Below are positions 28,355-52,097 of a DNA stretch of 64,000 bases, one piece after another. This stretch comes from a virus. Both the position numbers and the translations under genes were made by a program. The stretch covers positions 93,734 to 157,733 of IMG/VR virus record IMGVR_UViG_3300025141_000029. One strand, 5' to 3'. Positions within the stretch are counted from its first letter, which is position 1; the number at the start of each line of letters is the position of its first letter. A model generated the notes under the pieces. It was not told the origin of the DNA. It did not search any database and was given only the letters and a program-made list of their open reading frames with translations.

Positions 28355-29179
28355 TTATTCTCCTTTGCTTCTTTGAAAATTGTTAAATTCTATGCTTTTT
28401 TCTAGCATTTCAAATATTATATCATTTTCTTTGAGAAAGTTTAATAATTCTATAGAATCTTTAGGCAAGCATTTACCTCCATATCCAAATTTTCCATCAG
28501 GACCTGGAACCATTGTATGTTGTTCTCCGACCCATTCTGCTCTTGCAAAATGTTCGCGAAAAGAATCATAATCTATATTTTCTTTTTCACAAAGATTATA
28601 TAAATAATTACAATAACTTACTTTTAACCCATAAAAAGTATTTCTTGCTAATTTTAGTAGTTCGACCTCCGACCAATTCTGTGTTTCAAAGATTTTCACA
28701 TCATGATTTCCCCTATAATCAAAAAAGGTCTCATAAAGATTTCTTACTTTCAAGGTATTTTCTTTTTTACCAGCCAGATAAAGCTCTTGTTGATTAACAA
28801 AATCTTCCATTGCGGTTCTTTGAGATAAAAACTCTGGATTAAAAACAATATTGTTTAGACGATAAAGTTGTGATAAAGTTTCACAGGTTCCAGCTGGAAT
28901 TGTGGACTTAATAACAATTACAGAATTACTATTTTGATTTTCCTTTATAAAATCCTGGATACACGATTCTACAATTGATATATCCAGGCGCCCATCTTTT
29001 AAATCCGTGGGAACATTAATAAAAATAACATCCGCATTATAGGCATTTCTTATGTGTTTAAGGGATTTATAGTCCGAGTTGAATGGGTCATATATGTTTG
29101 TCGGGAAAACGTCTTTAAGCTGTGCTGTAGCCTTTCCTACGAACCCGTAGCCTATTATTCCAATTGTTGTTTTGTCCAC
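28355..29179 (-). CDS. ugd: UDP-glucose/GDP-mannose dehydrogenase family, short form lacking the C-terminal domain
   Basis: GIIGYGFVG, INVPT, VIKSTIPAGT, FNPEFL, ELLKLARNTF, GYGGKCLPKD (catalytic Cys). Confidence 0.85.
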   Translation of the reverse strand: MDKTTIGIIGYGFVGKATAQLKDVFPTNIYDPFNSDYKSLKHIRNAYNADVIFINVPTDLKDGRLDISIVESCIQDFIKENQNSNSVIVIKSTIPAGTCETLSQLYRLNNIVFNPEFLSQRTAMEDFVNQQELYLAGKKENTLKVRNLYETFFDYRGNHDVKIFETQNWSEVELLKLARNTFYGLKVSYCNYLYNLCEKENIDYDSFREHFARAEWVGEQHTMVPGPDGKFGYGGKCLPKDSIELLNFLKENDIIFEMLEKSIEFNNFQRSKGE

Positions 29180-30006
29180 TCTTTGTACCTCTCAAAAATA
29201 TATTCTGGTATATCAACTTTTCCATTCGCGCATAAATATAAGACATGTGTTTTTAAAGGGTTCCAGTTTTTAGTATATCTAATTTCATCTTTTTCTGTTA
29301 CTGATGGTGTAGAAAATACGACATGGGGGGCGCCACATAAACTAGCTAGATGCATGGGGCCGGATGATGGTCCAAAAACAGCTTCACAATTTCTCAATAT
29401 ATCAAATAATTCATTAAGTGGTATATTTCTTAAATCATCTGTTCCCTCAATATATCCAGATTCTTTGATGGTGCCGATACATGCTATTTTTTTATCATCT
29501 TGTGATAACAGCTTAAGCAGTTTTTTCCAATTATCGAAAGACCAGTTATCTTGTTTTCTTAATTCTCTATTTCTTATATGAAAAATATAATCATATTTTT
29601 TCTCTCCAACATTGCCATATTTTTTGTATTTTGGCTTAATGTTTAGGTGTTTAAAGCTTACTTCTTCTGAATAATGTGTATATGGCGGAAAGCCAATTCT
29701 TCTAGGGGCGAATATGGTTGTATTGCTATCTACTATATCCTTGTTTTCATAAAGAATTTTTTTAGTATAAGAAGGCATATCTAATCCGTGCATAAAAAAA
29801 GAATCAGATAATCCTCCAGGTGGACTTATATCAATAAATTTTGTTGCGAAATCTTGATATAAAGACCGCGAGGATGGTCGACATAAAACTATTATTTCAT
29901 CAAAATGATCAGCCAACGAACGAATATATGCTTGCCAAGCAAATAATTCCCATCCAAATTCGCCAACCCATGGGCCGGCTATTAATCTTTTATTTGATTT
30001 CGTCAT
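29155..30006 (-). CDS. Glycosyltransferase, GT9 (heptosyltransferase-like)
   Basis: GEFGWEL, DNWSFDNW, TDDLR...LNEL, VFGPSSGPMHLASLCGAPHVVF. Confidence 0.8.
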   Translation of the reverse strand: MTKSNKRLIAGPWVGEFGWELFAWQAYIRSLADHFDEIIVLCRPSSRSLYQDFATKFIDISPPGGLSDSFFMHGLDMPSYTKKILYENKDIVDSNTTIFAPRRIGFPPYTHYSEEVSFKHLNIKPKYKKYGNVGEKKYDYIFHIRNRELRKQDNWSFDNWKKLLKLLSQDDKKIACIGTIKESGYIEGTDDLRNIPLNELFDILRNCEAVFGPSSGPMHLASLCGAPHVVFSTPSVTEKDEIRYTKNWNPLKTHVLYLCANGKVDIPEYIFERYKEWTKQQLE

Positions 30007-30859
30007 ATAGATTTATTATTTGTTTAGCCCAATTCAGACGTGTAAACTGTTGTACTGTTTTACATCCATATTCTGCAATTTTTTGTGTTTCTTGAGGATT
30101 TTGTAGATAATATTCTATTTTTTGATTTAAATCATTAATATTTTTAAAAATAATTAAATCTTTTCCATCTATAAAATATTTCTCTCTATTATACCAATCA
30201 TCTGAAATTAAAAATCCTTTTGTAGCTAATACCTTATAAACTCTATCGGATGCGCCGGATGCGGTACAAAGATTTAAATTGATTTTACTTTTTGAAACCT
30301 CAAGTGCGTGCTTTCTACTATATGCATCAGAAATTATGTTAACCGGCTTATTGATTTGATTAATTATTTGTGCGCGGTCGCCATATATATTGCCAATAAA
30401 ACTGATATCATATTGTTTTTTGATATTGTGAGGCTTATCTATGTCAGAATCGTATCCTTCAAAAACATGAAATGAGTTCTTGTTTATTTTCAAAGCTTCT
30501 TTGAGTACATTTTCTTTATCACAACAAAAATAATCTACTGCAGTAGTTTTTTCTCTAATCTCTTGATTATAAGTAATTAAAGGATCCATAAACCACATGC
30601 ATGTTTTGGTAAGTTTATTTATTTCTCTGAACGTTTGTAACGCTATAACATTACATTTACTATAAATTACTAAATCAAAATTTCTATTTCTAATAGTAGA
30701 AACCAAATCTTTGTCTCTGCCCTCATTTCCCATCAAAGCAGCTTTTTGTCTGTAGTTGTAGCCAGAAACTTCATGGCCTAATTTTTTAAGAGATAGAATT
30801 TGTGATACGTTAGTTGATTTACCTTCGCGGTCGAAGACGCCAATAAATAAAATTTTCAT
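29990..30859 (-). CDS. Glycosyltransferase, CgeB / Glyco_trans_1_2-like
   Basis: WFMDP, YDISFIGN...R, SKINLN...SDRVYKVLATKGFLISD, DLNQKIEYYL...IAEYG. Confidence 0.8.
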   Translation of the reverse strand: MKILFIGVFDREGKSTNVSQILSLKKLGHEVSGYNYRQKAALMGNEGRDKDLVSTIRNRNFDLVIYSKCNVIALQTFREINKLTKTCMWFMDPLITYNQEIREKTTAVDYFCCDKENVLKEALKINKNSFHVFEGYDSDIDKPHNIKKQYDISFIGNIYGDRAQIINQINKPVNIISDAYSRKHALEVSKSKINLNLCTASGASDRVYKVLATKGFLISDDWYNREKYFIDGKDLIIFKNINDLNQKIEYYLQNPQETQKIAEYGCKTVQQFTRLNWAKQIINLYDEIK

Positions 30860-39837: not shown

Positions 39838-40476
39838 TTATTTAATGTTTTCAAATAGTGGCACTGTTTTTGGACCAAAGGGTCGCGGCTTCTCAATAAC
39901 CGTTACTCTGTGTACCTTGTTTTGTTGAATGAATTCATCAACAATTTTAACATTCTGTTCTCTGCAGAGTTCATCTAAGTTATAAAATCCGGCTGCGAGA
40001 TTCTCACTTATATTATGTCGTAGATCTCTTACTTTATCATCAATGGTAATGATTACTCCACCATCTTTTAGACTAGAAACCATCTTTTTAAAAGTTAGTC
40101 TGGTACCCCAGCTTTCTTGAAGATAGAAAACTCCAAACATAAAGATCACATCAAAATCTTTCTCTTTAAAATTCTGGAACTCTGTCCTAGAGAAGAGGAC
40201 ATTTTTTCGATGGTGATTTTCATTTATATCCCTAAATGCGTCGACGGCATGAATAGATTTTGCCCTTTCACTTAAAAATGATGTATATCTTCCATTTCCA
40301 CATCCTATATCAAGTACTTTACTTTCAGGTGTAAAATATCCTTCTATATGTGGCCATATCTCAGATTGAAATATTTCCATTGTGTTTAATGGATTTAGGG
40401 CTTCAAGGTCATTTTCCTGATATCTTTGTAGGCCCGTGCCTAGGATCGGTATTAAATTAACATTACTCTTATTCAT
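39838..40476 (-). CDS. Class I SAM-dependent methyltransferase
   Basis: KVLDIGCGNGRY, HAVD, FDVIFMFGVFY, LKDGGVIITID. Confidence 0.88.
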   Translation of the reverse strand: MNKSNVNLIPILGTGLQRYQENDLEALNPLNTMEIFQSEIWPHIEGYFTPESKVLDIGCGNGRYTSFLSERAKSIHAVDAFRDINENHHRKNVLFSRTEFQNFKEKDFDVIFMFGVFYLQESWGTRLTFKKMVSSLKDGGVIITIDDKVRDLRHNISENLAAGFYNLDELCREQNVKIVDEFIQQNKVHRVTVIEKPRPFGPKTVPLFENIK

Positions 40477-41086
40477 TCTCGATTACCTCACATTTTTTAT
40501 AAAGTGGCATTGTTCTTAAATCGCGATATGGAGGATTTTCTCCTTGATCTTCATGATAATCCGGAAATACTTGTAACAACGTCAAACCTCTAGCAGCCTG
40601 TTCTGGAGTCATGTACATATTCCATCCGCATATTTCAATATCATCATCAATATGATCCCTGCCTTCATATCTAGCTAGCTTAAACCACTTGGCTGCGTTT
40701 AAATCATCGGTTAAAATCATGCCGCCTTTCCCTATCTTAAGATTTTTTTTAGTTTGGAATGAGATACACATATAAGACCCGGGGATATACATATTGGATG
40801 TAAATCTTTTGGCAGCATCATAAATTGGATAGGGCTCCAGTTGGTATATGCCCTTCCACTCATAATCTCTTAATTTAACAGTGCCGCCGGCGTGGATTAT
40901 AGTTTGAGGCACAGAAAGGTATGTTTTACAGGGGATTGTCACATCTTTGACCTTTAAATATTTGCAGCACATCATTAGTCCATCTGTACAATTATCCACA
41001 GCTATTGCATATTTTGACCCACAGTATTGAGCAATATTCTCTTCAAACATTTCTACGACGTGCCAAGGATTATTCTTTAATTTCAT
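40469..41086 (-). CDS. Short DegT/DnrJ/EryC1/StrS-family aminotransferase (205 aa)
   Basis: FEENIAQYCGSKYAIAVDNCT, TYLSVP, IYDAA, CISFQTKKNL (Lys retained), GGMILTDD, GWNMYM. Start moved to ATG 41086, which gives an ATGA overlap with the upstream gene. Confidence 0.8.
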   Translation of the reverse strand: MKLKNNPWHVVEMFEENIAQYCGSKYAIAVDNCTDGLMMCCKYLKVKDVTIPCKTYLSVPQTIIHAGGTVKLRDYEWKGIYQLEPYPIYDAAKRFTSNMYIPGSYMCISFQTKKNLKIGKGGMILTDDLNAAKWFKLARYEGRDHIDDDIEICGWNMYMTPEQAARGLTLLQVFPDYHEDQGENPPYRDLRTMPLYKKCEVIENE

Positions 41087-41787
41087 GTTCTTTCCGCAAA
41101 AAGTATAATTTGTTCTGGATGATGGAATGGTAGCCTTCCCAACACCTGGCAATTTCCGTAATACTCTGTTAAAACTTCTTCATAAACAGATATCTGGGAT
41201 TTCATATCTCCAATTATTGCATATTTGCATCGGGGAAGGAATTCTTCAAAAATCTTTTCCTGATATTCAACTGGCATTTCCGATATCGACATCCATGCCA
41301 AAAATAAATCATAGTCTTTAATCGCCTTATCCGCTTGCGGAAAGGAGGGGGCCCATCGTACATATGATGGATCCGAAACCTCCGCGGTCTCGCTAGAATA
41401 TAAATCAACTTTCTTATTGTTTTCCTCTAAAAAAACCTTTGTAAATTTTAACATCTCTTCAAATTCAACAATTGAATATTCTGTATCTGGTTCTAATTCT
41501 AAATATTCATTACATAGATTTCCATATGCTGCCCCGAACTCAATTATGCTTTGAGGTGGGGTGGGCAAAAGGTCTGTAATATTTTTGGCGCGCTCATACA
41601 TCTGCTTTGTATTTTCTCTAAGTGGAGATGGCACAAGCATTCTCATAACATTAGAATGTGCAAAATTAAATTCTTCATCTGCCGGAGTTTCGTTTAGGAC
41701 CTTTTTGATAGAAGCCCAAAAACTCTCGTCACAATCAACTCTATAATTTCTTAACAAACTTAAATTTCTTGATTTTCTATTACTCAT
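41083..41787 (-). CDS. Putative sugar O-methyltransferase (NanM-like family)
   Basis: SIIEFGAAYGNLC, YSIVEFEEML, YDLFLAWMSISEMPVEYQEKIF. Confidence 0.7.
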   Translation of the reverse strand: MSNRKSRNLSLLRNYRVDCDESFWASIKKVLNETPADEEFNFAHSNVMRMLVPSPLRENTKQMYERAKNITDLLPTPPQSIIEFGAAYGNLCNEYLELEPDTEYSIVEFEEMLKFTKVFLEENNKKVDLYSSETAEVSDPSYVRWAPSFPQADKAIKDYDLFLAWMSISEMPVEYQEKIFEEFLPRCKYAIIGDMKSQISVYEEVLTEYYGNCQVLGRLPFHHPEQIILFAERT

Positions 41788-41936
41788 TTCCCCACTCTAT
41801 AAATTAAATCACCATCTTTGGAATATATTACCATACTTTTTCTAGATTGTATATAGAATACTTCATCTTTTATTTTATGATAGTGCCACGAACATCTCTT
41901 ATTTTTGACAAATTTAATTTCCAAAGAAGTCTTCAT
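41784..41936 (-). pseudogene. Internally deleted cupin remnant (50-aa mini-ORF)
   Basis: Not in ORF track; MKTSLEIKFVKNKRCSWHYHKIKDEVFYIQSRKSMVIYSKDGDLIYRVGK*. Retains cupin motif 1 (SxHYHxxKDExFYIxS) but lacks the KxWG segment and cupin motif 2. Confidence 0.7.
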
Positions 41937-42234
41937 CTTTCATTCCTTTATCGTCGATATAAATGTCGCCGGCCGGCTTTCCTAATTTAACGCCATGAAA
42001 TTTGACACCCCAGCTTTTTAACTGTCTATCGGTAAAAGTATAAAATTCTGGCCATGCTTTGCTTCCGTCGTTATCATTTCGACCCATACCCCGGGCTGTA
42101 TAAAAAAATATTGTGTGTCCTTCGTCATAAAGTTCATTCACTTTTTTGATTCTTTCTTTAAAAGGGAGGGCCTCTTCATAATTTCCATCTGTTTGAGTAC
42201 AAATTGTGCCATCTATATCAAATACATAAGTCAT
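41914..42234 (-). CDS. Minimal HAD-superfamily phosphatase (EcbF/BcbF capsule-biosynthesis type)
   Basis: FDIDGTIC, YTARGM, QLKSWGVKFH, GKP, YIDDK. Confidence 0.85.
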   Translation of the reverse strand: MTYVFDIDGTICTQTDGNYEEALPFKERIKKVNELYDEGHTIFFYTARGMGRNDNDGSKAWPEFYTFTDRQLKSWGVKFHGVKLGKPAGDIYIDDKGMKDEDFFGN

Positions 42235-42902
42235 TATTTAATCCATTCTTCAAAATCTTTTAAAAAGCCACTTACAGATTCGTCTGTTTTTGGATGTTTC
42301 ATCGATTTTTGAATTATATTATAGCCGGCAGTCACAATATGGGAGCCGGCGCTCCATGCATTCTCTAGATCGTAGCTATTTCTAATGCTTCCTGCTATAA
42401 TTTCACAATTCAAATTATTAGAATCAATAAAATTTCGTACTTTTCTTAAAACTTTAAGTGGGTCTCCATCAGCATCAAAAAGCCTATTATAAAACAAAGA
42501 AACATATCTGGCGCCAGAAAGGGCCGCTAATTCCATTTGGGGAGCTGTAAAACAACAAGTACAATTAACTGGAATTCCTAAATTGGTTAATTCATTAATA
42601 ACTTGTAATTCTTCATAACCAACTGGTATCTTAATATTTAAGCCGCTGTAATTTAATTTTTGTATAATCTCCCTTGCTTGAGAAACCATCTCTTTCGGAT
42701 CTGATGCAAAAACTTCGACGCTTAATGGAGCAACGTTTTTATAATTTTTACAAAGACTTACAATTTTTTTAATATGTTCATAAAAATTTGCTTTTGGCTC
42801 TTTAGCTAGCAAAGAAGGGTTTGTAGTAACACCTTGAATTACTCCTTTGGTCATAGCATCACTAATCTGTTCTAAATTAGCTGTGTCTAAAAATAATTTC
42901 AT
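42234..42902 (-). CDS. tal: Transaldolase (short TalC/FSA-fold type)
   Basis: LFLDTAN, GVTTNPSL, SVEV (Glu), NIKIP (Schiff-base Lys), YVSLF (Phe), IIAGSIR, HPKTD...FLKDF; Glu+Phe pair indicates transaldolase rather than FSA (Gln+Tyr). Confidence 0.9.
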   Translation of the reverse strand: MKLFLDTANLEQISDAMTKGVIQGVTTNPSLLAKEPKANFYEHIKKIVSLCKNYKNVAPLSVEVFASDPKEMVSQAREIIQKLNYSGLNIKIPVGYEELQVINELTNLGIPVNCTCCFTAPQMELAALSGARYVSLFYNRLFDADGDPLKVLRKVRNFIDSNNLNCEIIAGSIRNSYDLENAWSAGSHIVTAGYNIIQKSMKHPKTDESVSGFLKDFEEWIK

Positions 42903-43322
42903 TTAAAAATCCTCTATGTGTTTGTATGTCTTCCCATCTTCAACTATATGTGAATCACCATCATCATCTAAAGTAGAGAATTCGATAATTACTGTGTCTT
43001 CTATGGCAATTCTCATATGCATGAGCCCGGGGGGAATGTGAAATATGTCTCCGGAATTCATTAGGAATGACGTATTCTTTGCCCTTCCTATTCTTGTGCC
43101 TACTTTGAGTATTCCAGATTCAATATAATAAGATTCTTCTTTTTTAACATGATATTCCATACTGCTTTGAGTACCTTTTTTCATAAAAATTCTTTTTACA
43201 GTATATTGATCATTTTCGAAAAGAGTCTTCATGTTTCCCCAATATTTTTTCACCTCTTTAATAGGTCGTGATTTTGGAGGTAACTGTTGACGACCATATC
43301 TTATTTCATCACTTTTGTCCAT
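42903..43322 (-). CDS. Cupin-domain protein (sugar isomerase/epimerase-like)
   Basis: VKKYWG, SSMEYHVKKEESYYIESG, GDIFHIPPGLMHMRIA, IEFST. Confidence 0.8.
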   Translation of the reverse strand: MDKSDEIRYGRQQLPPKSRPIKEVKKYWGNMKTLFENDQYTVKRIFMKKGTQSSMEYHVKKEESYYIESGILKVGTRIGRAKNTSFLMNSGDIFHIPPGLMHMRIAIEDTVIIEFSTLDDDGDSHIVEDGKTYKHIEDF

Positions 43323-43998
43323 AATATTTCTGGCTTCCGTGTTTTCTTAAAAAATGCTTATTTAACAAATTTTCATCGAATTCAACAAGCTTATTATAGC
43401 ATAAGTTTATTGTTTTGTACGCCATTTCAGCAATATTTTCTAACACGACCGCGGTCTTCAACGCATTGTCTAAGCTATCGCCCCATACAAATACGCCATG
43501 AGAAGGCGAAAGCGCTGCAGGCATTTCCCGAGGAGATATATTTTTTTCTTTAAAATATTCTACAATTTTCAAACCAGTGTTTCTTTCATATTCATGCTCT
43601 ATTTCTTGCGGACTTAAATCTCTAACAACAGGTACCTCGCCATAAAAATAATCAGCATGCGTTGTGCCCATACAAGGAATACTTATCTTTGCTTGAGCAA
43701 AAATGGTACAATACTTAGAATGAGTATGGATTATCGCTTTAACTTCTGGAAATGCTTTATACAAAATAAGATGTGTTGGAGTATCAACCGAAGGTTTTAG
43801 GCCGCTTAGATGGATTTCTGTCTTTAAATCGATCTTGGATAACTTTTCCTCTGTTAAGTCGCTAAAAGGTACCCCAGAGGGTTTGATATATATATTATTA
43901 TCGTCGAAGCGACAGCTAGCATTTCCCCATGTAGAGATAACCAATTTTTCTTCTTTTAATCTTTTATTAACTTGAACTAATTTATGTAAATCATTCAT
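43309..43998 (-). CDS. araD: L-ribulose-5-phosphate 4-epimerase (class II aldolase/epimerase)
   Basis: TWGNAS, IKPSGV, KPSVDTPTHL, HTHS, GTTHADYFYG, YERNTG, HGVFVWG, LLNKHFLRKHG..YYGQ. Confidence 0.93.
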   Translation of the reverse strand: MNDLHKLVQVNKRLKEEKLVISTWGNASCRFDDNNIYIKPSGVPFSDLTEEKLSKIDLKTEIHLSGLKPSVDTPTHLILYKAFPEVKAIIHTHSKYCTIFAQAKISIPCMGTTHADYFYGEVPVVRDLSPQEIEHEYERNTGLKIVEYFKEKNISPREMPAALSPSHGVFVWGDSLDNALKTAVVLENIAEMAYKTINLCYNKLVEFDENLLNKHFLRKHGSQKYYGQK

Positions 43999-44756
43999 AT
44001 TTTTCCATTAATATAGTCAGCTGCATATTTATTGGCTTTTTCTGGATTTTCAAAAGATAGAAATGCTGCGTAAAAACAATCGCCGGCACCAATTAGGTTC
44101 TTTGGATTATCAATTGCGTTCGTCGGATATATAATTCCATTAAGTTCGCATCCCTTTTCCCCTTTTGTGATTAATATATTTTCTCTTCGCTTGAACGAAT
44201 CAGCCTCGGCCTCGTTACATATTAGATAATCCATATTCATATATTTCGTAAAATTGGATTGATGGCTTGATATTTGAGAAGCTCCAAAAGTTATCGCTTT
44301 GCTTTCCAAGCTTCTATTAATCATTTTTTGTGAAATTAAACCACAGCGATAATCTGAAAATGCTATTACATCAAAATTATTAAAATCTAAATCAATATCT
44401 AAATTCAAATTTTCTTTATTTGTATCATTAACTTGTAAATATTTATATCTCTCATTTCCGTGTTTCACAAAAAACCTAGATTTAATATTTTCTATATCGC
44501 TACTTAGATTTAAAAACGTCAACTTATTCTTTTTAAGAAATTTATATTCAGAATCTTTAGACATGCTGCTGGCGAATGTTACATCTAAGCCAAAAGAAGC
44601 AGCATATTTGGCTACATTTGAGGCGCCTCCAAAATTTATTTCTTTATCAATATATGAGGTTTTCATTGTTGGAGATTCTAAAGATAACCCAACAGCCTCA
44701 AGATTGAAATTTTTATCGATAATTGTATCGCCGATAATTAAGATTCTTTTTTCCAT
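43995..44756 (-). CDS. PfkB-family sugar kinase, HldE/RfaE kinase-domain-like
   Basis: ILIIGDTIIDK, LSLESP, GGASNVA, FSDYRCG, CNEAEA, ITKGEKG, IGAGDCF. Confidence 0.82.
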   Translation of the reverse strand: MEKRILIIGDTIIDKNFNLEAVGLSLESPTMKTSYIDKEINFGGASNVAKYAASFGLDVTFASSMSKDSEYKFLKKNKLTFLNLSSDIENIKSRFFVKHGNERYKYLQVNDTNKENLNLDIDLDFNNFDVIAFSDYRCGLISQKMINRSLESKAITFGASQISSHQSNFTKYMNMDYLICNEAEADSFKRRENILITKGEKGCELNGIIYPTNAIDNPKNLIGAGDCFYAAFLSFENPEKANKYAADYINGKI

Positions 44757-45607
44757 GAACTCAAACCATAAATTTTCTTAATAGTATTTGTTGTTGAATA
44801 ATTTTCAACAAGAGAATAGATTTTTATTTCGATATCTTCAGATACACTATCTCTTTCGCGAACCTGTTCTTTTGTCCATTCCCCACCTTTAACCAAAATA
44901 TCAGGCATTAAACTTTCTCTTAAATCATGAGGATCAATATCATCAAAAATAATTACCTGATCAACTACATTTAAAGATTCTAAGATTTTTTTCCTATCAT
45001 TTTGATTATTAATTGGACGATTATCGCCTTTTAATTTTTTGACTGACATGTCTGAATTGATACCAATGATCAATTTATTACCCAGGCTTTTAGCAAAATT
45101 TAAAAGTTCAATATGGCCGGTATGAAGAATATCGAAAACACCATTTGTAAAAACAATTTCTTTTTCTTTGTTAGACAATTTTTCAATTCTTTTGACATGT
45201 CGGCCTTGTCCAAATTCTGTTTCAAGCCAAAAATTTAATATTTCTTTTGCTTGAGGATATGGAGTAATCCAACTACCCAAACATAAAATATTCGAATCAT
45301 TATGCTCGCGACATTTTGGCGCCGTAAATTGATTGTGTACCAACGCAGCTCTTATTTTTTCATTTCGATTAGCTGCGATGCTCATGCCGACGCCGGTGCC
45401 ACATATCAAAATACCTTTATGTACATCACCCGAAGCAACAATATGAGATAACTGATTAGCATAATCTACATAATCTACTTTAGTTTTACTTTCGAAGGGC
45501 CCTATATCAATGGTATCAAATCCTTTTTCTTTTAAAAATATATGCAGTTCTTTTTTTAATTCCACGCCATTATGATCTGACGCCAATAGAATTGTTTTAT
45601 TTTTCAT
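44738..45607 (-). CDS. rpiB: Fusion: ribose-5-phosphate isomerase B domain + HldE/RfaE-type nucleotidyltransferase domain
   Basis: N-half ASDHNG, DYVDYA, GILICGTGVGMSIAANR, HNDSNILCLG, F.QGRHVKRIEK; C-half VFTNGVFDILHTGH, GINSDMSVKKLKGDNRPIN, VKGGEW, YSTT. Start taken at ATG 45607. Confidence 0.88.
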   Translation of the reverse strand: MKNKTILLASDHNGVELKKELHIFLKEKGFDTIDIGPFESKTKVDYVDYANQLSHIVASGDVHKGILICGTGVGMSIAANRNEKIRAALVHNQFTAPKCREHNDSNILCLGSWITPYPQAKEILNFWLETEFGQGRHVKRIEKLSNKEKEIVFTNGVFDILHTGHIELLNFAKSLGNKLIIGINSDMSVKKLKGDNRPINNQNDRKKILESLNVVDQVIIFDDIDPHDLRESLMPDILVKGGEWTKEQVRERDSVSEDIEIKIYSLVENYSTTNTIKKIYGLSSWKKES

Positions 45608-46436
45608 TTCTACACCATTCGTCAAACATGTTCAAAGCTTTGTTTTTTTGATCTCGAATTTTTTCTATTAATTCGTTACCCTTTAAATATGAATAATCTT
45701 CGCTAGCAAAACCTAACATATTTGGAGTAGTCACCAAATTACAATTCAGCATTTTAGCTTCTGCGGCGAGACGTGAAAATGTTTCCAGCACTTGTGGAAA
45801 AAATATTAAATTTTCACATTCTGCCAATTGAGCTAAGAAATCATAATAATTATTAGATTTAATTAAGTGAGGCTTAATTTCTCTATGTTGGCAATATTTT
45901 AATGCCCTGTCTAGACCTTTGACTGGATTTTTATTATCTACAACGCCAAATTTATACTTTTTTTCTACACGAGATAAAACAGCTAAATGATCAAGTGTTT
46001 TATCACGCCACAAGCTACATCCAATATTAGATACATTATTAGAAATACTATTCTTTTCTAAAATATCTTTACATATTCTACTAAGAACAATAACCTTCTG
46101 TGCTTTTTTGTAAAATTCTTGATGAATTAGTTGATCAGGAGGGATTTCAAAATCTTTGAATTTAGAAGCATCCCGTGTTCTTACGTATTTGTGATCATGC
46201 TCATATATAAGATATTTTTTATCTGTAAGCCAATCGCGGATCGGGATAGGAAGAGTAACGAAATTTGATACAATATATAAATCTTCTTGTTGTAAAGAAT
46301 CAAGATTAATTTGGGAACATCGATATTTTGTCAAATGATGTTTCTGCAATAAAAAGTCAATTAATACTGCATCATTTAGTTCACCGCCTCCTTGTAGATT
46401 TTCTACAAAAAGATCTCCTAAAAATCCTATCTTCAT
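45597..46436 (-). CDS. Putative glycosyltransferase (GT-B/GT4-like)
   Basis: GGGELND, YEHDHKY, VKG, IFFPQVLETFSRLAAEAKMLNC (Ex7E). Confidence 0.65.
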   Translation of the reverse strand: MKIGFLGDLFVENLQGGGELNDAVLIDFLLQKHHLTKYRCSQINLDSLQQEDLYIVSNFVTLPIPIRDWLTDKKYLIYEHDHKYVRTRDASKFKDFEIPPDQLIHQEFYKKAQKVIVLSRICKDILEKNSISNNVSNIGCSLWRDKTLDHLAVLSRVEKKYKFGVVDNKNPVKGLDRALKYCQHREIKPHLIKSNNYYDFLAQLAECENLIFFPQVLETFSRLAAEAKMLNCNLVTTPNMLGFASEDYSYLKGNELIEKIRDQKNKALNMFDEWCRNEK

Positions 46437-46438
46437 TT

Positions 46439-47713
46439 TTATAGTATTTCAATTTCGTCTAATTTACTTATCCATTCTCGTTCTTCTCTCGAAGGTAAAA
46501 ATTTCTCAATTAAAGAATTTATTTTTTCATATTGATTCTCTTTCGAAAGATTTTTTAAGAGATGTTTCTGAAGTTGTTTTGCTTGTTTTTTAAACCTTCC
46601 ATGATCTCTATAGATCTCTCTCATTCGAATCTTGAATGAGCCTTGCTCTGGAAAACACCACATTGAATCTTGTTGAATTACGCCATCCCATACTGCTTCT
46701 TTTTGAATTGGCGCCAATGAATATTCAACTTTGGCAAACATAGCTTTATTTTTAATTTTATCTTTTTTATCTTTTGTTGGCATATGAAGAAAATCTACAT
46801 AACCGCTCCAATCAGCAGCAACTATTGGTAAGCCCTCATACGCAGCTTCAAACATAGGTAATCCAAAGCCCTCTCCATGGGTTGTTGTTAGAAGAGCTTT
46901 TATTTTTGAATTACGATAAAGCTGATGTATTTCTTGATCTGTCATATCACCATGAAGAAGATATACTTTACATTTTCTATTTTTATAATCTTCTTTAGAT
47001 AAGATATTTTTTAACATTTCCAAAGTATGATTTCTATCCATTAAAGAATTTTTAGCAAAATTCGTTTTTAAAATTAAACCAACTTCTTGATCAATAAATT
47101 CTTCAACAAACCATTGTATACAATTTACAATATTTTTTCTAGGACTCCATTGTGCGACGGCCAAAAAATTAAAATCAGTTTCTAGATTTAAACTTAAATC
47201 AACATCTTCAAAAGATTTGACAGGATAAGATACAACTTCAATTGGAGTCATACAACGATAATCGGGTATAATTTGTCCTGTTTCTTTTACAGTTGCCTCA
47301 TATTGTGTATTCTCATACACCTGTTTTGAATGATTTGATGGAACAATAATTAAATCCATTATATTTCCATTTTCAATCCAAATAGGTGCGACTTTAGTTG
47401 TTTCAATTCCTGCTGTAACTCCAATATTGATTGGTGCTAATTTTTCCCATTCATTGGGGATAGATACTTGTATAGATATATCAAAAACCGCAGTCTTGTT
47501 GTTGACTACCAATGTTGTTTTTTGTATTATGGAATCCAACCATTCTCTTTCGTCATCATTATCGACAACCCAGCCAGTATGACCCCATCCTAGAGGAATT
47601 ATATATAGATCTAGCTTATCTTCCATAGTTCTTAAAGCCCGTAATAAAAATCGAACATGTTCTCCATATCCAGATCTTGTTAAAACTGGTCCTCTTACTA
47701 ATACTTTTGTCAC
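46439..47713 (-). CDS. Glycosyltransferase family 4
   Basis: SGYGEHVR, TAGIET, IVPSNHSK, RKN, HGEGFGLPMFEAA...WSGYVDF. Confidence 0.88.
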   Translation of the reverse strand: MTKVLVRGPVLTRSGYGEHVRFLLRALRTMEDKLDLYIIPLGWGHTGWVVDNDDEREWLDSIIQKTTLVVNNKTAVFDISIQVSIPNEWEKLAPINIGVTAGIETTKVAPIWIENGNIMDLIIVPSNHSKQVYENTQYEATVKETGQIIPDYRCMTPIEVVSYPVKSFEDVDLSLNLETDFNFLAVAQWSPRKNIVNCIQWFVEEFIDQEVGLILKTNFAKNSLMDRNHTLEMLKNILSKEDYKNRKCKVYLLHGDMTDQEIHQLYRNSKIKALLTTTHGEGFGLPMFEAAYEGLPIVAADWSGYVDFLHMPTKDKKDKIKNKAMFAKVEYSLAPIQKEAVWDGVIQQDSMWCFPEQGSFKIRMREIYRDHGRFKKQAKQLQKHLLKNLSKENQYEKINSLIEKFLPSREEREWISKLDEIEIL

Positions 47714-47714
47714 T

Positions 47715-48983
47715 TTATTGCCTCACTTCAATTAATTGCCATGACTTATAATTTTTTCTTGTTTTCCAAGAGCCATAATTTTCATGAATTTGTTCTAATA
47801 ATTCAGGCCAACGGGCAGAATAATTTTCAAAATTATAATTTTCTTCGACATGTTTCCGTCCCAAAAGTCCAATTTCTTTACGTTGTTCTCTTGTTAGTTC
47901 ATAAATTTTTAGAAGTGCATTAATGAAATCATTTTTAGTAATTCGGTCTTCATATATATATGGTACTTCTTGCGATCCAATGATGGCTTTTGAACTAGGC
48001 TCAATGCCTACTCCAAACCAATTTTTACCATCTGTAACTTGCTCTTGAAGGCCGCCAGTCATATTAACAATAATCGGCGTTCCACATGAAAGAGACTCTA
48101 AAGTAGCTAAGCCAAATCCTTCAGCATCAGATATATTGATAGTACAGTCGGCAAAATTATAAATCTTAGCTAAAATCTGTGGATCGACAGGGTGTGTTGA
48201 AAAAGTTACCTCTCCATTAACCAATCCAAGCTCATTTATTATTGCTGCCAAATCTTGACCAGCACCATCTTTTGGATTAGTATGCATAATCAAAGATGCT
48301 TTATCGTGGCCAATTTTATCCAAAAATTCTTTAAACCAATAAATCAAAGTTCCACTTTGTTTTCTCCTAGCATTTCTATTATTCCAAAAGAATACAGTCT
48401 TGTTTTCCAATTGAGGCATCGCCTCCAACATGAACTCTTTAGTTTCTTGTTCATCCAAAGGTTTAAAAATTTCGCTAGGTACTCCATGTGGAATATAGTG
48501 GCTTTCGACATCTGGTGATACAGTTTTCACAATATCATCAGTCACTTTCGAAATAGCGGCTATCACATCTGTAGAATCATAAAAGACTTTATTAAACTTA
48601 GGATATGGATAGTTATCCCATACATGATAATAGACCATTGGCATTAAACTGCGAATTTCATTTTCAATTTCCCAAAGCCATCCAAAAAATCTAGGATCTG
48701 TCATAAACCAAAGAATGTCTGGTTTATGACTTCGTATCGCAGATCTGATCATATCATGATCACCATATCCATCAACTGGAAATATTAACCAGTCTTCACC
48801 ATATGGATCAACTTTTCGCGGAGTATAATCTGCATGTTTTATTGCTCCCCCAAAACACACAAATTGAAATTTCTTAGTTTTTAAACAAGAATCAATCATA
48901 TATTTTGTTTGTGTACCGACGCCGGAAGGAGATAAAGGATGATCAGATAATACAAGAACTTTAATTTTTTTATTTTCTTTCAT
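47715..48983 (-). CDS. Glycosyltransferase family 4
   Basis: SDHPLSPSGVGTQT, IPHGV, NNRNARRKQ, SDAEGFGLATLESLSCGTPII...TGGLQEQV. Confidence 0.9.
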   Translation of the reverse strand: MKENKKIKVLVLSDHPLSPSGVGTQTKYMIDSCLKTKKFQFVCFGGAIKHADYTPRKVDPYGEDWLIFPVDGYGDHDMIRSAIRSHKPDILWFMTDPRFFGWLWEIENEIRSLMPMVYYHVWDNYPYPKFNKVFYDSTDVIAAISKVTDDIVKTVSPDVESHYIPHGVPSEIFKPLDEQETKEFMLEAMPQLENKTVFFWNNRNARRKQSGTLIYWFKEFLDKIGHDKASLIMHTNPKDGAGQDLAAIINELGLVNGEVTFSTHPVDPQILAKIYNFADCTINISDAEGFGLATLESLSCGTPIIVNMTGGLQEQVTDGKNWFGVGIEPSSKAIIGSQEVPYIYEDRITKNDFINALLKIYELTREQRKEIGLLGRKHVEENYNFENYSARWPELLEQIHENYGSWKTRKNYKSWQLIEVRQ

Positions 48984-50786: not shown

Positions 50787-52097
50787 TTAAAGTATTTTCG
50801 ATGCCAGCGTAGCCACTTTTGATCTTTCGCCTTTTTTGAGAGTTATATGCCCTGAAACTTCATGTTCTTTAAATTTTTCAATGGCATATGAAAGACCATT
50901 AGAAGTAGCATCTAAATAAGTATTATCAATTTGTTCAATGTCTCCAGTTAAAATAATTTTTGAATTTTCACCAATTCTAGTGACAATTGTTTTTAATTCA
51001 TGAACTGTTAAGTTTTGTGCTTCATCAATAATAACATAAGCATTGGAGATAGAACGACCTCTAATATATGTAAGCGCTTCGATTTCAATAACTCCTTGAT
51101 CCATTAACAAGGACATTGTATCTTTTTTATCACCCATCAAAAATTCTAAATTATCTTGTACGGGCATTAACCATGGGCCCATTTTCTCTTCTAAGGTACC
51201 AGGTAAAAATCCTATATCACGGCCGACTGGCTGAACCGGCCTAGAAACGACCAATTTTTTATACTTATTCTGATCCAAAACTTGATCCAGGCCAGCAGCA
51301 AGAGCTAATAAAGTTTTTCCACAGCCGGCTGGCCCAATCATTGAAATAATGGGAATATCTTCATTCATCAACATATCTAGAGCAAAAGCCTGTTCTTTGT
51401 TTCTAGCTTTTAAACCCCATATTCCTTTATTTTTATATTCATTGATTTTTTGTAATGGTGTATTATTATTAATAAATTTGGCCAATGTTGTATGTTTTGG
51501 ATCTGAGCTAGATATCAGCATGATATATTGGTTTGGATTAAATTTTCCTTCTATGACCTCAGCAGTGATATTTTCGCCGGTATAAAATCTATCAATAATC
51601 TGATCATCGACTAAATGGGTCTTAAAGCCATCGTAAAGCTCTTGGATATCCGAGACTACCTGATTCTCTATATAATCCTCTGAAGGCAAGTCTAAGGCGT
51701 CGCATTTGATACGCATATTGATATCTCTAGATATCACAATTACCTTGCGTTTTGGATTATCTCTTTTTTCTGTTAAGGCTGTGGTAACAATTTGATTATC
51801 AGCATTAGTTTCATCTAACCCAATGGGCATTAAATCTAAATCATACATTTTAACAGATAAAATACCTTTACCTTTTCCCAGACGTATTCCTTTATGAAGA
51901 TTTCCCTTTTCTCTTAAACTATCAAGAATGCGGATTGAAGATCTCGCATTTAAGCCAACTCCATCTTGTCTTTTCTTGTGTTTATCAATCTCTTCTAGAA
52001 CTTTTAATGGAATTATAATATCATTATTCTTAAATGAAAATATAGATTTAGCATTGGTTAAAAAAACATTCGTATCAAGCACATAAGTTTTTTTCAT
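50787..52097 (-). CDS. phoH: PIN-domain + PhoH ATPase fusion (PhoH2/YlaK-like)
   Basis: YVLDTNV, LEEIDKHK, ADNQI, SRDINMRIK (PIN); RNKEQ, GPAGCGKT, DIGFLPG..EEKM.PW, YIRGRS, IIDEAQN, GDIEQID, RS (PhoH). Confidence 0.93.
   Translation of the reverse strand: MKKTYVLDTNVFLTNAKSIFSFKNNDIIIPLKVLEEIDKHKKRQDGVGLNARSSIRILDSLREKGNLHKGIRLGKGKGILSVKMYDLDLMPIGLDETNADNQIVTTALTEKRDNPKRKVIVISRDINMRIKCDALDLPSEDYIENQVVSDIQELYDGFKTHLVDDQIIDRFYTGENITAEVIEGKFNPNQYIMLISSSDPKHTTLAKFINNNTPLQKINEYKNKGIWGLKARNKEQAFALDMLMNEDIPIISMIGPAGCGKTLLALAAGLDQVLDQNKYKKLVVSRPVQPVGRDIGFLPGTLEEKMGPWLMPVQDNLEFLMGDKKDTMSLLMDQGVIEIEALTYIRGRSISNAYVIIDEAQNLTVHELKTIVTRIGENSKIILTGDIEQIDNTYLDATSNGLSYAIEKFKEHEVSGHITLKKGERSKVATLASKIL

What the first reader, a model, noticed from the sequence alone, without database searches (positions are those of the whole stretch)
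41914..45607. RpiB-nucleotidyltransferase fusion + kinase + AraD + cupin + transaldolase + phosphatase: candidate new route to an NDP-heptose/octose
Seen: six coupled genes inside the glycan island, with no GmhA (SIS) isomerase in the window. Known: NDP-heptose synthesis uses isomerase, HldE kinase, HAD phosphatase and HldE nucleotidyltransferase; lincomycin octose synthesis starts with a transaldolase (LmbR) acting on ribose-5-phosphate, then isomerase, kinase, phosphatase and nucleotidyltransferase. Inference: AraD/RpiB supply an unusual pentose phosphate, transaldolase extends it to a C7/C8 ketose phosphate, and the rest activate it for the two GT9-like transferases. Here tal would be biosynthetic, not the pentose-phosphate auxiliary gene of cyanophages.
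Basis: partly seen in the sequence, partly recalled or inferred. Interest (0 to 1): 0.82.

Follow-up and report, generated by a model that had tools for sequence, protein, structure and literature searches.

The report
GmhA-free phage higher-sugar activation cassette
An uncultured marine T4-like phage carries a tightly packed six-gene set, shared with other phages and a few bacteria, that most likely builds and nucleotide-activates a seven- or eight-carbon sugar by an undescribed route lacking the usual first enzyme (GmhA). Which sugar it makes is still unknown.

Summary
Six overlapping minus-strand genes (41914-45607) encode a mini-HAD phosphatase, a TalC-type transaldolase, a PMI-like cupin, an AraD-like 4-epimerase, an HldA-like PfkB kinase and an RpiB::HldC-like nucleotidyltransferase fusion. 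No SIS/GmhA gene occurs in the 157.7-kb record.

The order is conserved in 21 IMG/VR loci and five MAG contigs. Two of those contigs are cellular glycan clusters with GT9 heptosyltransferase-family genes alongside.

RpiB and Tal occur only with one cupin subtype (12/12 loci). A widespread four-gene module (NT, kinase, HAD, second cupin subtype; also in cyanophages S-SM2 and Sf-CH8) never has them nearby (0/68). Both modules can sit in one genome.

The three pentose-phosphate-like enzymes are specialised paralogues:
- RpiB has Trp where 72/75 stand-alone RpiBs have a phosphate-binding Arg.
- AraD has Val for Ser at E. coli Ser75, 15/15 against 0/23.
- Tal groups apart from cyanophage TalC.

Best reading: a dedicated HldE-type pathway to an (A)DP-C7/C8 sugar. 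An octose, by analogy with lincomycin's LmbR route, is plausible but unproven.

This scan has already reported the same cassette on at least ten other genomes.

Novelty: new variant of a known kind.

The parts
41914..42234 (-). Mini-HAD phosphatase (106 aa), GmhB analogue. Proposed to remove the terminal (omega) phosphate from the sugar 1,omega-bisphosphate.
   Evidence: DxDGT, T46, K86 and DD motifs are visible in the sequence. It matches phrog_1238 at 1.7e-28 and, weakly, TIGR01662 HAD-IIIA and TIGR01689. It is 50-66% identical across cassette loci. In L014 it is fused in frame to the cupin.
42234..42902 (-). Cassette-specific TalC-type transaldolase (222 aa).
   Evidence: PF00923 scores 154 bits, and TIGR00875 165 bits, below its 246 cut-off. 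Asp6, the Glu of SVEV, the Lys of IKIP and the Phe of SLF are kept, which marks a transaldolase rather than an FSA. It is 30-34% identical to cyanophage TalC, and the canonical and cyanophage TalCs form a clade apart from it (94/89). It differs at positions invariant in 34 canonical TalCs, namely G98E, L116C, P136L, G139N, A171G, P193G and G209S.
42903..43322 (-). PMI-like metal cupin (139 aa), the proposed ketose-phosphate to aldose-phosphate isomerase replacing GmhA.
   Evidence: PF01050 scores 29.6 against a cut-off of 23.6. The motif S54-x-E56-x-H58-x-x-K61, E63 and H102 parallels the type II PMI motif S-x-Q-x-H-x-x-R (PMC9602691). The AF2 model has pLDDT 84, and its cupin-fold matches include D-lyxose isomerases, cupin PGI and PMI. 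It is the most conserved cassette protein (64-88% identity). A cupin-HAD fusion occurs in L014.
43309..43998 (-). AraD-like class II aldolase-fold 4-epimerase (229 aa), an optional cassette member.
   Evidence: It is about 47% identical to E. coli AraD (1JDI), with the Zn ligands, Asp120 and Tyr229 kept. NF006047 scores 269 against a cut-off of 257. The equivalent of E. coli Ser75 is Val in 15/15 cassette forms and Ser in 23/23 Acidobacteriota AraDs. It is absent from the cassettes in L013, L016, L099 and L100.
43995..44756 (-). HldA-like PfkB anomeric sugar-phosphate kinase (253 aa).
   Evidence: PF00294 scores 37 bits and TIGR02198 rfaE_dom_I 60 bits, far below its cut-off. The GAGD and NEAE motifs are present. 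The AF2 model has pLDDT 88, and its top seven Foldseek PDB hits are all B. cenocepacia HldA (E 5e-16, TM 0.75-0.78), well ahead of other PfkB kinases.
44738..45607 (-). RpiB::HldC-like nucleotidyltransferase fusion (289 aa).
   Evidence: RpiB half: TIGR01120 scores 156 against a cut-off of 139, and the Asp-His, Cys-Gly-Thr, His-Asn and Arg-His-x-x-Arg residues are kept. Trp replaces the conserved phosphate-binding Arg (MtRpiB Arg113) in 15/15 fused forms, against Arg in 72/75 stand-alone RpiBs. N13, H91, N92, K98 and G133 are also group-specific (PMC3755991). NT half: TIGR02199 rfaE_dom_II scores 160 against a cut-off of 181.5, with HTGH and NYSTT motifs. The fusion is common in metagenomes and mostly viral.
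45597..48983 (-). Upstream closely packed genes: a 279-aa unknown (possibly GT-B-like) and two GT4 glycosyltransferases. They are probable users of the island's sugar donors.
   Evidence: Pfam Glycos_transf_1 and GT4-conflict hits. The genes are syntenic with the cassette in L003-L005, L092 and L094-L098.
29155..30859 (-). GT9-family (heptosyltransferase-family) gene and its Glyco_trans_1_2 neighbour, the candidate acceptor-side enzymes for the cassette product.
   Evidence: PF01075 scores 27.6 against a cut-off of 22. Orthologues lie directly after the cassette in L003, L004, L092 and L095. GT9 genes also flank the cassette in L014 and L016.

Best explanation
The six genes form a mobile, self-contained cassette for a GmhA-independent, HldE-type route to a nucleotide-activated higher-carbon sugar (C7 or C8, most likely ADP-linked). 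GT9-family and GT4 transferases of the same island then use this sugar to decorate either the host surface or the virion.

Proposed order of steps:
1. The dedicated transaldolase makes a 2-ketose omega-phosphate with 3S,4R configuration from fructose-6-P plus an aldose phosphate. Erythrose-4-P would give sedoheptulose-7-P; ribose-5-P would give octulose-8-P.
2. Where present, the AraD-like enzyme inverts C4 of that ketose phosphate.
3. The PMI-like cupin, possibly together with the remodelled RpiB domain, converts ketose to aldose. Alternatively, the RpiB domain supplies the ribose-5-P acceptor.
4. The HldA-like kinase phosphorylates O1.
5. The mini-HAD removes the terminal phosphate.
6. The HldC-like domain fused to RpiB makes the NDP-sugar.

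Shown: the gene content, the conserved linkage, the intact catalytic motifs, the HldA/HldC affinity of the back end, and the paralogue-specific substitutions.

Inferred: every substrate, the order of the front-end steps, the nucleotide and the carbon number.

My split for the product is roughly 55% a non-standard sugar (an octose or a C4-epimeric heptose) and 45% D-glycero-D-manno-heptose.
For: Linkage:
- Identical gene order in L001-L009 and L092-L103, although the flanks differ.
- The core (RpiB::NT, PfkB, cupin, Tal, HAD) is also found in MAG contigs L012-L016.

Fusions that tie the parts together:
- RpiB::NT.
- Cupin::HAD in L014.
- A double cupin in L016.

Heptose-type back end:
- The NT domain scores 160 bits on rfaE_dom_II.
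- The kinase model matches HldA first.
- The HAD has complete motifs.

No GmhA (SIS_2):
- Absent from this record (with SIS).
- Absent from three related phage records, two of them 94-100% complete, and from S-SM2 and Sf-CH8.
- Absent from the Parcubacteria MAG that has the cassette next to a GT9 gene.

GT9 neighbours occur in both viral and cellular contexts.

Dedicated rather than housekeeping enzymes:
- G001, G002 and G005 keep a separate stand-alone RpiB.
- G002 keeps a TalB-type Tal as well.
- RpiB Arg-to-Trp, AraD Ser-to-Val and many Tal-specific substitutions lie in or beside substrate- or phosphate-binding residues.

A distinct product is suggested by these points:
- RpiB and Tal co-occur only with cupin subtype 1 (12/12 against 0/68).
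- The four-gene module with cupin subtype 2 coexists with the cassette in L002, L005 and L092-L096.
- L016 has a canonical HldE and a GmhB-like HAD beside the cassette.

Precedent: lincomycin's GDP-octose route uses a transaldolase (LmbR, acting on ribose-5-P), an isomerase, a phosphatase and a nucleotidyltransferase (PMC5854111, PMC12945683); the matching kinase, LmbP, I cite from memory.
Against: - No biochemical data exist for any member.
- The RpiB domain passes the curated RpiB equivalog cut-off and AraD passes an AraD subfamily cut-off, so both may simply run standard pentose-phosphate reactions.
- The strict Tal/RpiB/cupin-1 association could reflect block inheritance rather than substrate co-adaptation.
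- The cupin fold matches are generic (TM 0.6-0.7, 11-23% identity).
- The kinase is far below the HldE-domain cut-off (60 against 345 bits).
- No HldD-like epimerase was recognised.
- The functional meaning of the Arg-to-Trp and Ser-to-Val changes is inferred from homologous structures, not modelled.
Confidence: 0.68

Rival explanations
1. [quoted passage not shown] The cupin, kinase, HAD and NT convert sedoheptulose-7-P as in the textbook pathway, with the cupin standing in for GmhA. Tal, RpiB and AraD only boost sedoheptulose-7-P supply from hexose and pentose phosphates during infection.
For: The NT and kinase are closest to HldC/HldA. GT9 neighbours are present. A PMI-like cupin would give the manno configuration at C2, by analogy with F6P to M6P. 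RpiB passes the RpiB equivalog cut-off and its catalytic residues are canonical. S-SM2's related cluster carries a transketolase-like gene.
Against: Bacteria that have the cassette keep housekeeping RpiB and Tal. L016 already has a canonical HldE and a GmhB-like HAD beside it. Several phages carry both this cassette and the minimal module. The phosphate-site substitutions in RpiB and AraD are not expected for plain PPP supply. L-ribulose-5-P 4-epimerase has no role in sedoheptulose-7-P supply. No transketolase is found in the record.
Confidence: 0.2
2. A shorter sugar is activated, either a hexose (F6P to M6P to mannose-1,6-bisP to mannose-1-P to ADP-mannose) or a pentofuranose. The pentofuranose could come from ribose-5-P made by RpiB, or from L-ribulose-5-P made by AraD.
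For: The cupin scores on the PMI family. RpiB and AraD look like pentose-phosphate enzymes. The kinase is very divergent from HldE domain I.
Against: This leaves no role for the invariant transaldolase. AraD is dispensable. The NT is much closer to heptose-1-P adenylyltransferase than to other cytidylyltransferase-fold enzymes (160 against at most 53 bits). The kinase fold matches HldA best. The GT9 association also points to a heptose-type donor.
Confidence: 0.08
3. Tal, RpiB and AraD are ordinary auxiliary metabolic genes that redirect the host pentose-phosphate pathway for nucleotides and NADPH, as proposed for cyanophage talC. They merely lie next to glycan genes.
For: talC is a common cyanophage auxiliary gene. 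All three are PPP-type enzymes.
Against: RpiB is fused to the sugar nucleotidyltransferase. The order is fixed across distant phages and in cellular glycan clusters. The Tal lineage is distinct from cyanophage TalC. The genes are never found with the minimal module (0/68). No psbA is found in this record.
Confidence: 0.04

Closest known systems
[quoted passage not shown] 2024 (as summarised in PMC11461863 and PMC11573728)
   Same: Both use anomeric kinase, then terminal phosphatase, then HxGH/STT nucleotidyltransferase. The kinase fold is closest to HldA. The NT domain scores near the HldE domain II cut-off. The phosphatase is a HAD. GT9-family neighbours are present.
   Different: There is no SIS-fold GmhA. 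The kinase and NT are split, and the NT is fused to RpiB, an architecture not among the three HENase subgroups in those summaries. The HAD is a 106-aa minimal form. A transaldolase, a PMI-like cupin and usually an AraD-like epimerase are integral. No HldD was recognised. The motif's fifth position is Tyr, not the Arg (STTR5) linked to CTP/UTP use.
Lincomycin/celesticetin GDP-octose pathway (LmbR transaldolase, LmbN isomerase, LmbP kinase, LmbK phosphatase, LmbO nucleotidyltransferase); Sasaki et al. 2012 as cited in PMC5854111, gene table in PMC12945683
   Same: The logic is the same: a transaldolase builds the ketose phosphate (ribose-5-P plus a C3 donor gives octulose-8-P), followed by isomerase, kinase, phosphatase and nucleotidyltransferase.
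   Different: The context is different (an actinomycete antibiotic cluster against phage and bacterial glycan islands). The cassette has a cupin and/or RpiB where LmbN is the isomerase (LmbN is SIS-type from my memory, not checked here). Its NT is HldC-like. The octose product is unproven here. No sequence comparison with the Lmb proteins was possible (no sequences at hand).
Four-gene module of T4-like cyanophages (T4-GC 304-307: 'HldE-like' NT, carbohydrate kinase, 'phosphoheptose isomerase' that is really a mini-HAD, 'cysteine dioxygenase' that is really a cupin), e.g. S-SM2 and Sf-CH8
   Same: The NT (about 45% identity), HAD (55-58%), cupin (38-40%) and PfkB (about 26%) are homologous. GmhA is absent. 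Both sit in glycan islands.
   Different: The minimal module never has RpiB, Tal or AraD within 7 kb (0/68 loci). Its cupin is a different subtype. It can coexist with the six-gene cassette in one phage.
Cyanophage TalC auxiliary metabolic gene (pentose-phosphate redirection)
   Same: Both are short TalC/FSA-family transaldolases with the same catalytic Asp, Glu, Lys and Phe.
   Different: Identity is only 30-34%. The lineages are separate. Residues that are invariant in canonical TalC are altered. The gene is always embedded in the sugar-activation cassette, not beside cp12/zwf/gnd-type genes (for example, P-HM1 talC sits next to CP12).

Membership tests
NDP-heptose (HldE-type) biosynthetic pathway | SIS-fold sedoheptulose-7-P isomerase GmhA | tested here: not met
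   No PF13580 or PF01380 match in the 157.7-kb record. No PF13580 match in related phage records of 94-100% completeness or in S-SM2 and Sf-CH8. A host GmhA cannot be excluded.
NDP-heptose (HldE-type) biosynthetic pathway | PfkB-fold heptose-7-P anomeric kinase (HldA / HldE domain I) | tested here: inconclusive
   TIGR02198 scores only 60 bits against a cut-off of 345. The AF2 model's seven best PDB matches are all HldA, and the GAGD and NxxE motifs are present.
NDP-heptose (HldE-type) biosynthetic pathway | HAD-IIIA heptose-1,7-bisphosphate phosphatase (GmhB) | tested here: inconclusive
   All four HAD motifs are present in 106 aa. The match to TIGR01662 HAD-IIIA is weak (23 against 44.6). 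There is no GmhB equivalog hit.
NDP-heptose (HldE-type) biosynthetic pathway | HxGH/STT heptose-1-P nucleotidyltransferase (HldC / HldE domain II) | tested here: inconclusive
   TIGR02199 scores 160.4 bits, just under its 181.5 cut-off and far above any other NT model. The HTGH and NYSTT motifs are present.
RpiB (ribose-5-phosphate isomerase B) | Equivalog-level HMM score and the catalytic Asp-His, Cys, Thr, His-Asn residues | tested here: met
   TIGR01120 scores 155.9 against a cut-off of 138.65. The residues align with the solved RpiBs 3HE8 and 4EM8.
RpiB (ribose-5-phosphate isomerase B) | Phosphate-binding Arg of the beta5/alpha5 loop (MtRpiB Arg113) | tested here: not met
   Trp in 15/15 fused forms, against Arg in 72/75 stand-alone RpiBs. 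The role of this Arg is taken from PMC3755991.
AraD (L-ribulose-5-phosphate 4-epimerase) | Zn ligands plus the epimerase acid/base pair Asp120/Tyr229 | tested here: met
   Aligned to 1JDI at about 47% identity with all of these retained. NF006047 is above its cut-off; TIGR00760 is below (247 against 389).
AraD (L-ribulose-5-phosphate 4-epimerase) | Phosphate pocket Ser74-Ser75 (assignment from my memory of the E. coli AraD/FucA literature) | tested here: not met
   PSVD in 15/15 cassette AraDs, against PSSD in 23/23 Acidobacteriota AraDs and in E. coli.
TalC-type transaldolase (not FSA) | Schiff-base Lys, Asp6, Glu (Gln in FSA), Phe (Tyr in FSA) | tested here: met
   Alignment to 3R8R, 1VPX and 3S0C. 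TIGR00875 scores 165, below its cut-off of 246. The lineage is distinct.
Type II phosphomannose-isomerase cupin | Pfam PF01050 above gathering score, and the S-x-Q-x-H-x-x-R motif with metal ligands | tested here: inconclusive
   PF01050 scores 29.6 against a cut-off of 23.6. The motif is present as S-x-E-x-H-x-x-K, with E63 and H102 invariant. Isomerase activity and substrate are untested.
Lincosamide-type NDP-octose pathway | Transaldolase that uses ribose-5-P as acceptor to give octulose-8-P | not testable with these tools
   This needs an enzyme assay. Only the parallel in gene logic is shown.

The most novel reading that the evidence does not exclude
The cassette is a transaldolase-driven chain-extension pathway that makes an NDP-octose or a C4-epimerised heptose. 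Specialised RpiB, AraD-like and cupin enzymes would act on C7/C8 sugar phosphates rather than pentose phosphates. This would be the first such route outside lincosamide antibiotic biosynthesis, spread by marine T4-like phages to build unusual surface or virion glycans.
Probability: 0.3. Interest if true: 0.85.

Novelty: new variant of a known kind. Interest (0 to 1): 0.68.

Why it matters
If confirmed, this would add a second, GmhA-independent way for nature to make activated heptose-class sugars.

It would also reassign 'pentose-phosphate auxiliary genes' (tal, rpiB) in many uncultured phages to glycan biosynthesis.

The cupin, RpiB and AraD variants would become new higher-sugar-phosphate isomerases and epimerases for enzymology.

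NDP-heptoses are ALPK1 innate-immune agonists (PMC11461863), so a widespread viral source or variant structure is of general interest.

It also bears on whether marine phages glycosylate their own virions or remodel host surfaces.

Tried and rejected
- Megablast of the region against GenBank phages found nothing. Protein searches there found no fused form, and the AraD hits were records without annotation or labelled as bacterial genomes, which I take to be bacterial sequence.
- phmmer of the kinase against PDB sequences found nothing. An AF2 model plus Foldseek was needed.
- The promoter and terminator scan was at chance level.
- The PhoH2 search gave no close cultured relative or host clue.
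- A paper search for a cupin-type sedoheptulose-7-P isomerase, and for the gene combination, found nothing relevant. Sasaki 2012 (PMC3486926) is not held.
- The methionine-salvage reading (MtnB-like aldolase plus ARD-like cupin) was considered and dropped. The aldolase-fold protein scores 269 bits as AraD against about 72 as MtnB, and Tal and NT have no place in that pathway.
- The FSA (aldolase) reading of Tal was rejected on the Glu/Phe signature.
- A search for a culturable carrier failed: only the one MAG among 151 genomes sampled from its family has the fusion. A cassette-like Tal in G198 stands alone, with none of the other cassette genes nearby.
- No HldD-like epimerase was found in the island.

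Full report
WHAT IS THERE

The window is bases 93734-157733 of a 157.7-kb IMG/VR virus record (CheckV 87%). The record has a T4-type major capsid gene and no psbA.

Between 48983 and 41914 every gene lies on the minus strand, and stops and starts overlap or lie a few bases apart. The six genes of the finding are as follows.

- HAD (41914-42234, 106 aa). It has a full DxDGT/T/K/DD motif set.
- Transaldolase (42234-42902). PF00923 scores 154 bits. It keeps Asp, Glu, Lys and Phe, so it is a transaldolase rather than a fructose-6-P aldolase.
- Cupin (42903-43322). It is above the Pfam gathering score for the phosphomannose-isomerase C-terminal family.
- AraD-like protein (43309-43998). It is about 47% identical to E. 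coli AraD, with the Zn ligands, Asp120 and Tyr229 retained.
- PfkB kinase (43995-44756).
- RpiB::cytidylyltransferase-fold fusion (44738-45607). The second half scores 160 bits on the HldE domain II model, whose cut-off is 181.5.

No SIS-fold protein is encoded anywhere in the record. One correction: only one nearby transferase scores as GT9.

IS IT A UNIT?

Yes. Searching IMG/VR with the fusion protein returned nine loci. All nine have the order RpiB::NT, PfkB, AraD, cupin, Tal, HAD, although the flanks differ between them.

Searching with a cupin alignment returned 80 loci, which fall into two sharp classes.

- Twelve loci have a cupin at least 64% identical to the window's. All twelve have RpiB, NT, PfkB and Tal, and eleven have the HAD; the exception, L103, ends just after Tal. 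Ten have AraD.
- Sixty-eight loci have a cupin 35-43% identical. None has RpiB, Tal or AraD within 7 kb, but most have an NT and a HAD, and about half have a recognisable PfkB kinase.

The four-gene module is the one annotated in cultured cyanophages S-SM2 and Sf-CH8. There the gene names are misleading: 'phosphoheptose isomerase' is the mini-HAD and 'cysteine dioxygenase' is the cupin.

Both modules occur together in L002, L005 and L092-L096. Proteins joining RpiB to two NT domains also exist.

The fusion is abundant in metagenomes. Its Atlas clusters are 70-88% viral.

CELLULAR COPIES

Among GTDB species genomes the fused form was recovered on five MAG contigs.

- L016 (Acidobacteriaceae) is a typical polysaccharide locus. 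It carries an initiating sugar transferase, a canonical bifunctional HldE, a GmhB-like HAD, then the cassette with a double cupin and no AraD, an extra NT, a GT9 gene and a UDP-glucose dehydrogenase.
- L014 (Parcubacteria) has a GT9 gene upstream of the cassette, with sugar methyltransferases and a GT4 gene nearby. Here the cupin and the HAD are one open reading frame.

G001, G002 and G005 also have a separate stand-alone RpiB. G002 has a TalB-type transaldolase as well. The cassette copies are therefore dedicated paralogues.

The cassette is sporadic in cells. Only 1 of 151 genomes sampled from that family has it.

THE BACK END IS HEPTOSE-LIKE

- The NT domain is far closer to heptose-1-P adenylyltransferase than to any other model.
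- An AF2 model of the kinase (pLDDT 88) finds Burkholderia HldA as its seven best PDB matches, about a thousand-fold better in E-value than other ribokinase-family members.
- The fifth position of the (F/L)xxGxSTT motif is Tyr, not the Arg associated with CTP/UTP use (PMC11461863). ATP is therefore the best guess for the nucleotide.
- GT9-family genes follow the cassette directly in L003, L004, L092 and L095, and flank it in both cellular loci.

THE FRONT END IS NOT TEXTBOOK

GmhA (SIS_2) is absent from all five other phage records checked, two of them 94-100% complete, and from the Parcubacteria MAG.

The cupin is the best GmhA substitute, for these reasons:
- It is the only isomerase-like protein in the minimal module.
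- It carries a PMI-like S-x-E-x-H-x-x-K motif with invariant His, Glu and His metal ligands (PMC9602691).
- Converting sedoheptulose-7-P to the manno-heptose is the one-carbon-longer analogue of the PMI reaction. This point is inference.
- Its fusion to the HAD echoes the GmhA-GmhB fusions I recall from bacteria (from memory, not checked here).

Its predicted fold is a small cupin whose PDB matches include D-lyxose isomerases, cupin phosphoglucose isomerase and an archaeal PMI. These matches are generic.

THE THREE PENTOSE-PHOSPHATE-LIKE ENZYMES ARE SPECIALISED

- RpiB domain. It keeps every catalytic residue and passes the RpiB equivalog cut-off. In 15/15 fused forms, however, Trp replaces an Arg present in 72/75 stand-alone RpiBs. 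The literature identifies that Arg (MtRpiB Arg113) as a phosphate ligand, and its absence accompanies the longer pocket of the hexose-phosphate enzyme LacAB (PMC3755991). Lys98 and Asn13 are also group-specific.
- AraD. The cassette forms differ from 23 Acidobacteriota AraDs and from E. coli AraD at one diagnostic position. Val replaces Ser75, which from memory is a phosphate-pocket residue.
- Tal. Cassette Tals are 30-34% identical to cyanophage TalC. The cyanophage and other canonical TalCs form a 94/89-supported clade that excludes them; the cassette Tals themselves are left as an unresolved group (midpoint-rooted tree). They differ at seven positions that are invariant in 34 canonical TalCs, several of them next to the catalytic Phe/Arg and Asn/Thr residues.

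AraD is optional. Its slot is empty in L099 and L100, and holds a second cupin in L013 and L016. That pattern suggests a stereochemical tailoring step.

An AraD-type retro-aldol 4-epimerase fits chemically. Transaldolase products have the same 3S,4R arrangement as its normal substrate, xylulose-5-P. This is inference.

WHAT IT PROBABLY DOES

The cassette is most likely a dedicated, GmhA-free route to an (A)DP-activated C7 or C8 sugar.

Three observations argue that the product is not simply ADP-D,D-heptose made from host sedoheptulose-7-P:
- The transaldolase is strictly present and specialised.
- Housekeeping copies of Tal and RpiB persist in the cellular carriers.
- The cassette coexists with the minimal module, or with a canonical HldE.

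Lincomycin's pathway is a precedent for an octose. It runs from the LmbR transaldolase acting on ribose-5-P through isomerase, kinase, phosphatase and nucleotidyltransferase to GDP-octose (PMC5854111, PMC12945683; the kinase, LmbP, is from memory).

Nothing here fixes the carbon number, the stereochemistry, or which of the cupin and RpiB performs which isomerisation. Block inheritance could also explain the co-occurrence pattern. I put ordinary ADP-heptose with PPP-type supply at about 0.2.

STANDING

I found no paper describing this cassette or the RpiB::NT architecture. The summaries of Tang et al. 2024 list NT-only, kinase-NT and isomerase-kinase-NT forms only.

This scan's earlier notes show the same cassette reported on at least ten other genomes, with concordant readings. 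I re-derived the main points independently.

- the two-class cupin census;
- the diagnostic phosphate-site substitutions in RpiB and AraD;
- the Tal-specific substitutions;
- the cupin::HAD fusion.

One genome (G306) is flagged as unpublished. No claim here rests on it.

Noticed in passing
L014:10052-10855 (Parcubacteria MAG contig VMFZ01000005.1): The cupin (51% identical to the window's) and the mini-HAD (56% identical) are one uninterrupted reading frame. This is a cupin::HAD fusion, parallel to the GmhA-GmhB fusions I recall from bacteria (from memory, not checked here).
   Followed up: yes
L016:5601-13386 (Acidobacteriaceae MAG): The cassette lies between a canonical bifunctional HldE plus a GmhB-like HAD on one side, and an extra stand-alone NT plus a GT9 gene on the other. 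Its cupin gene encodes two cupin domains (279 aa), and AraD is absent.
   Followed up: partly
P0002, P0004, P0023 (metagenome proteins, 441-469 aa): These variants of the fusion join the RpiB domain to two cytidylyltransferase-fold domains, in the order RpiB-NT-NT or NT-RpiB-NT.
   Followed up: partly
window 43995-44756 compared with L001-L004, L006-L009: The cassette kinase comes in two very divergent forms. One is a 253-aa type (window, L005, L092, L094; 52-64% identical to the window's). The other is a roughly 285-aa type only 31-33% identical. AraD identities split the same way.
   Followed up: no
window 40469-41152: This DegT/aminotransferase-like ORF is only 227 aa, with a TTG start and two separated matching stretches, and it overlaps the next gene by 70 bases. 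It looks truncated or internally deleted.
   Followed up: no
window 28355-29179: This UDP-glucose/GDP-mannose dehydrogenase-like ORF is only 274 aa. It lacks the C-terminal UDP-binding domain and part of the N-terminal domain, so it may be a split or decayed gene.
   Followed up: no
window 33057-34997: A KedN5-family B12-dependent radical SAM C-methyltransferase (310 bits, below cut-off) sits between an Fcl-like reductase and a bona fide Gmd (462 bits, above cut-off). This hints at a C-methylated deoxyhexose.
   Followed up: no
window 50787-52097: A PIN-PhoH (PhoH2-type) gene, a PD-(D/E)XK nuclease and a 234-aa unknown are syntenic with the GT4-cassette block in L003-L005, L092 and L095. The closest cultured-phage PhoH2 is only 36-38% identical.
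   Followed up: partly
L234 (G198:C2:3736000-3755900, Acidobacteriota, 4.36-Mb contig): A transaldolase 45% identical to the cassette Tal, closer than to canonical TalC, stands with none of the other cassette genes nearby.
   Followed up: partly
L010 (Synechococcus phage S-SM2, NC_015279.1 147703-160080): The cyanophage glycan cluster with the minimal module also holds a transketolase-like gene, a Zn alcohol dehydrogenase, a divergent class II aldolase and two mini-HAD genes mislabelled 'phosphoheptose isomerase'.
   Followed up: partly
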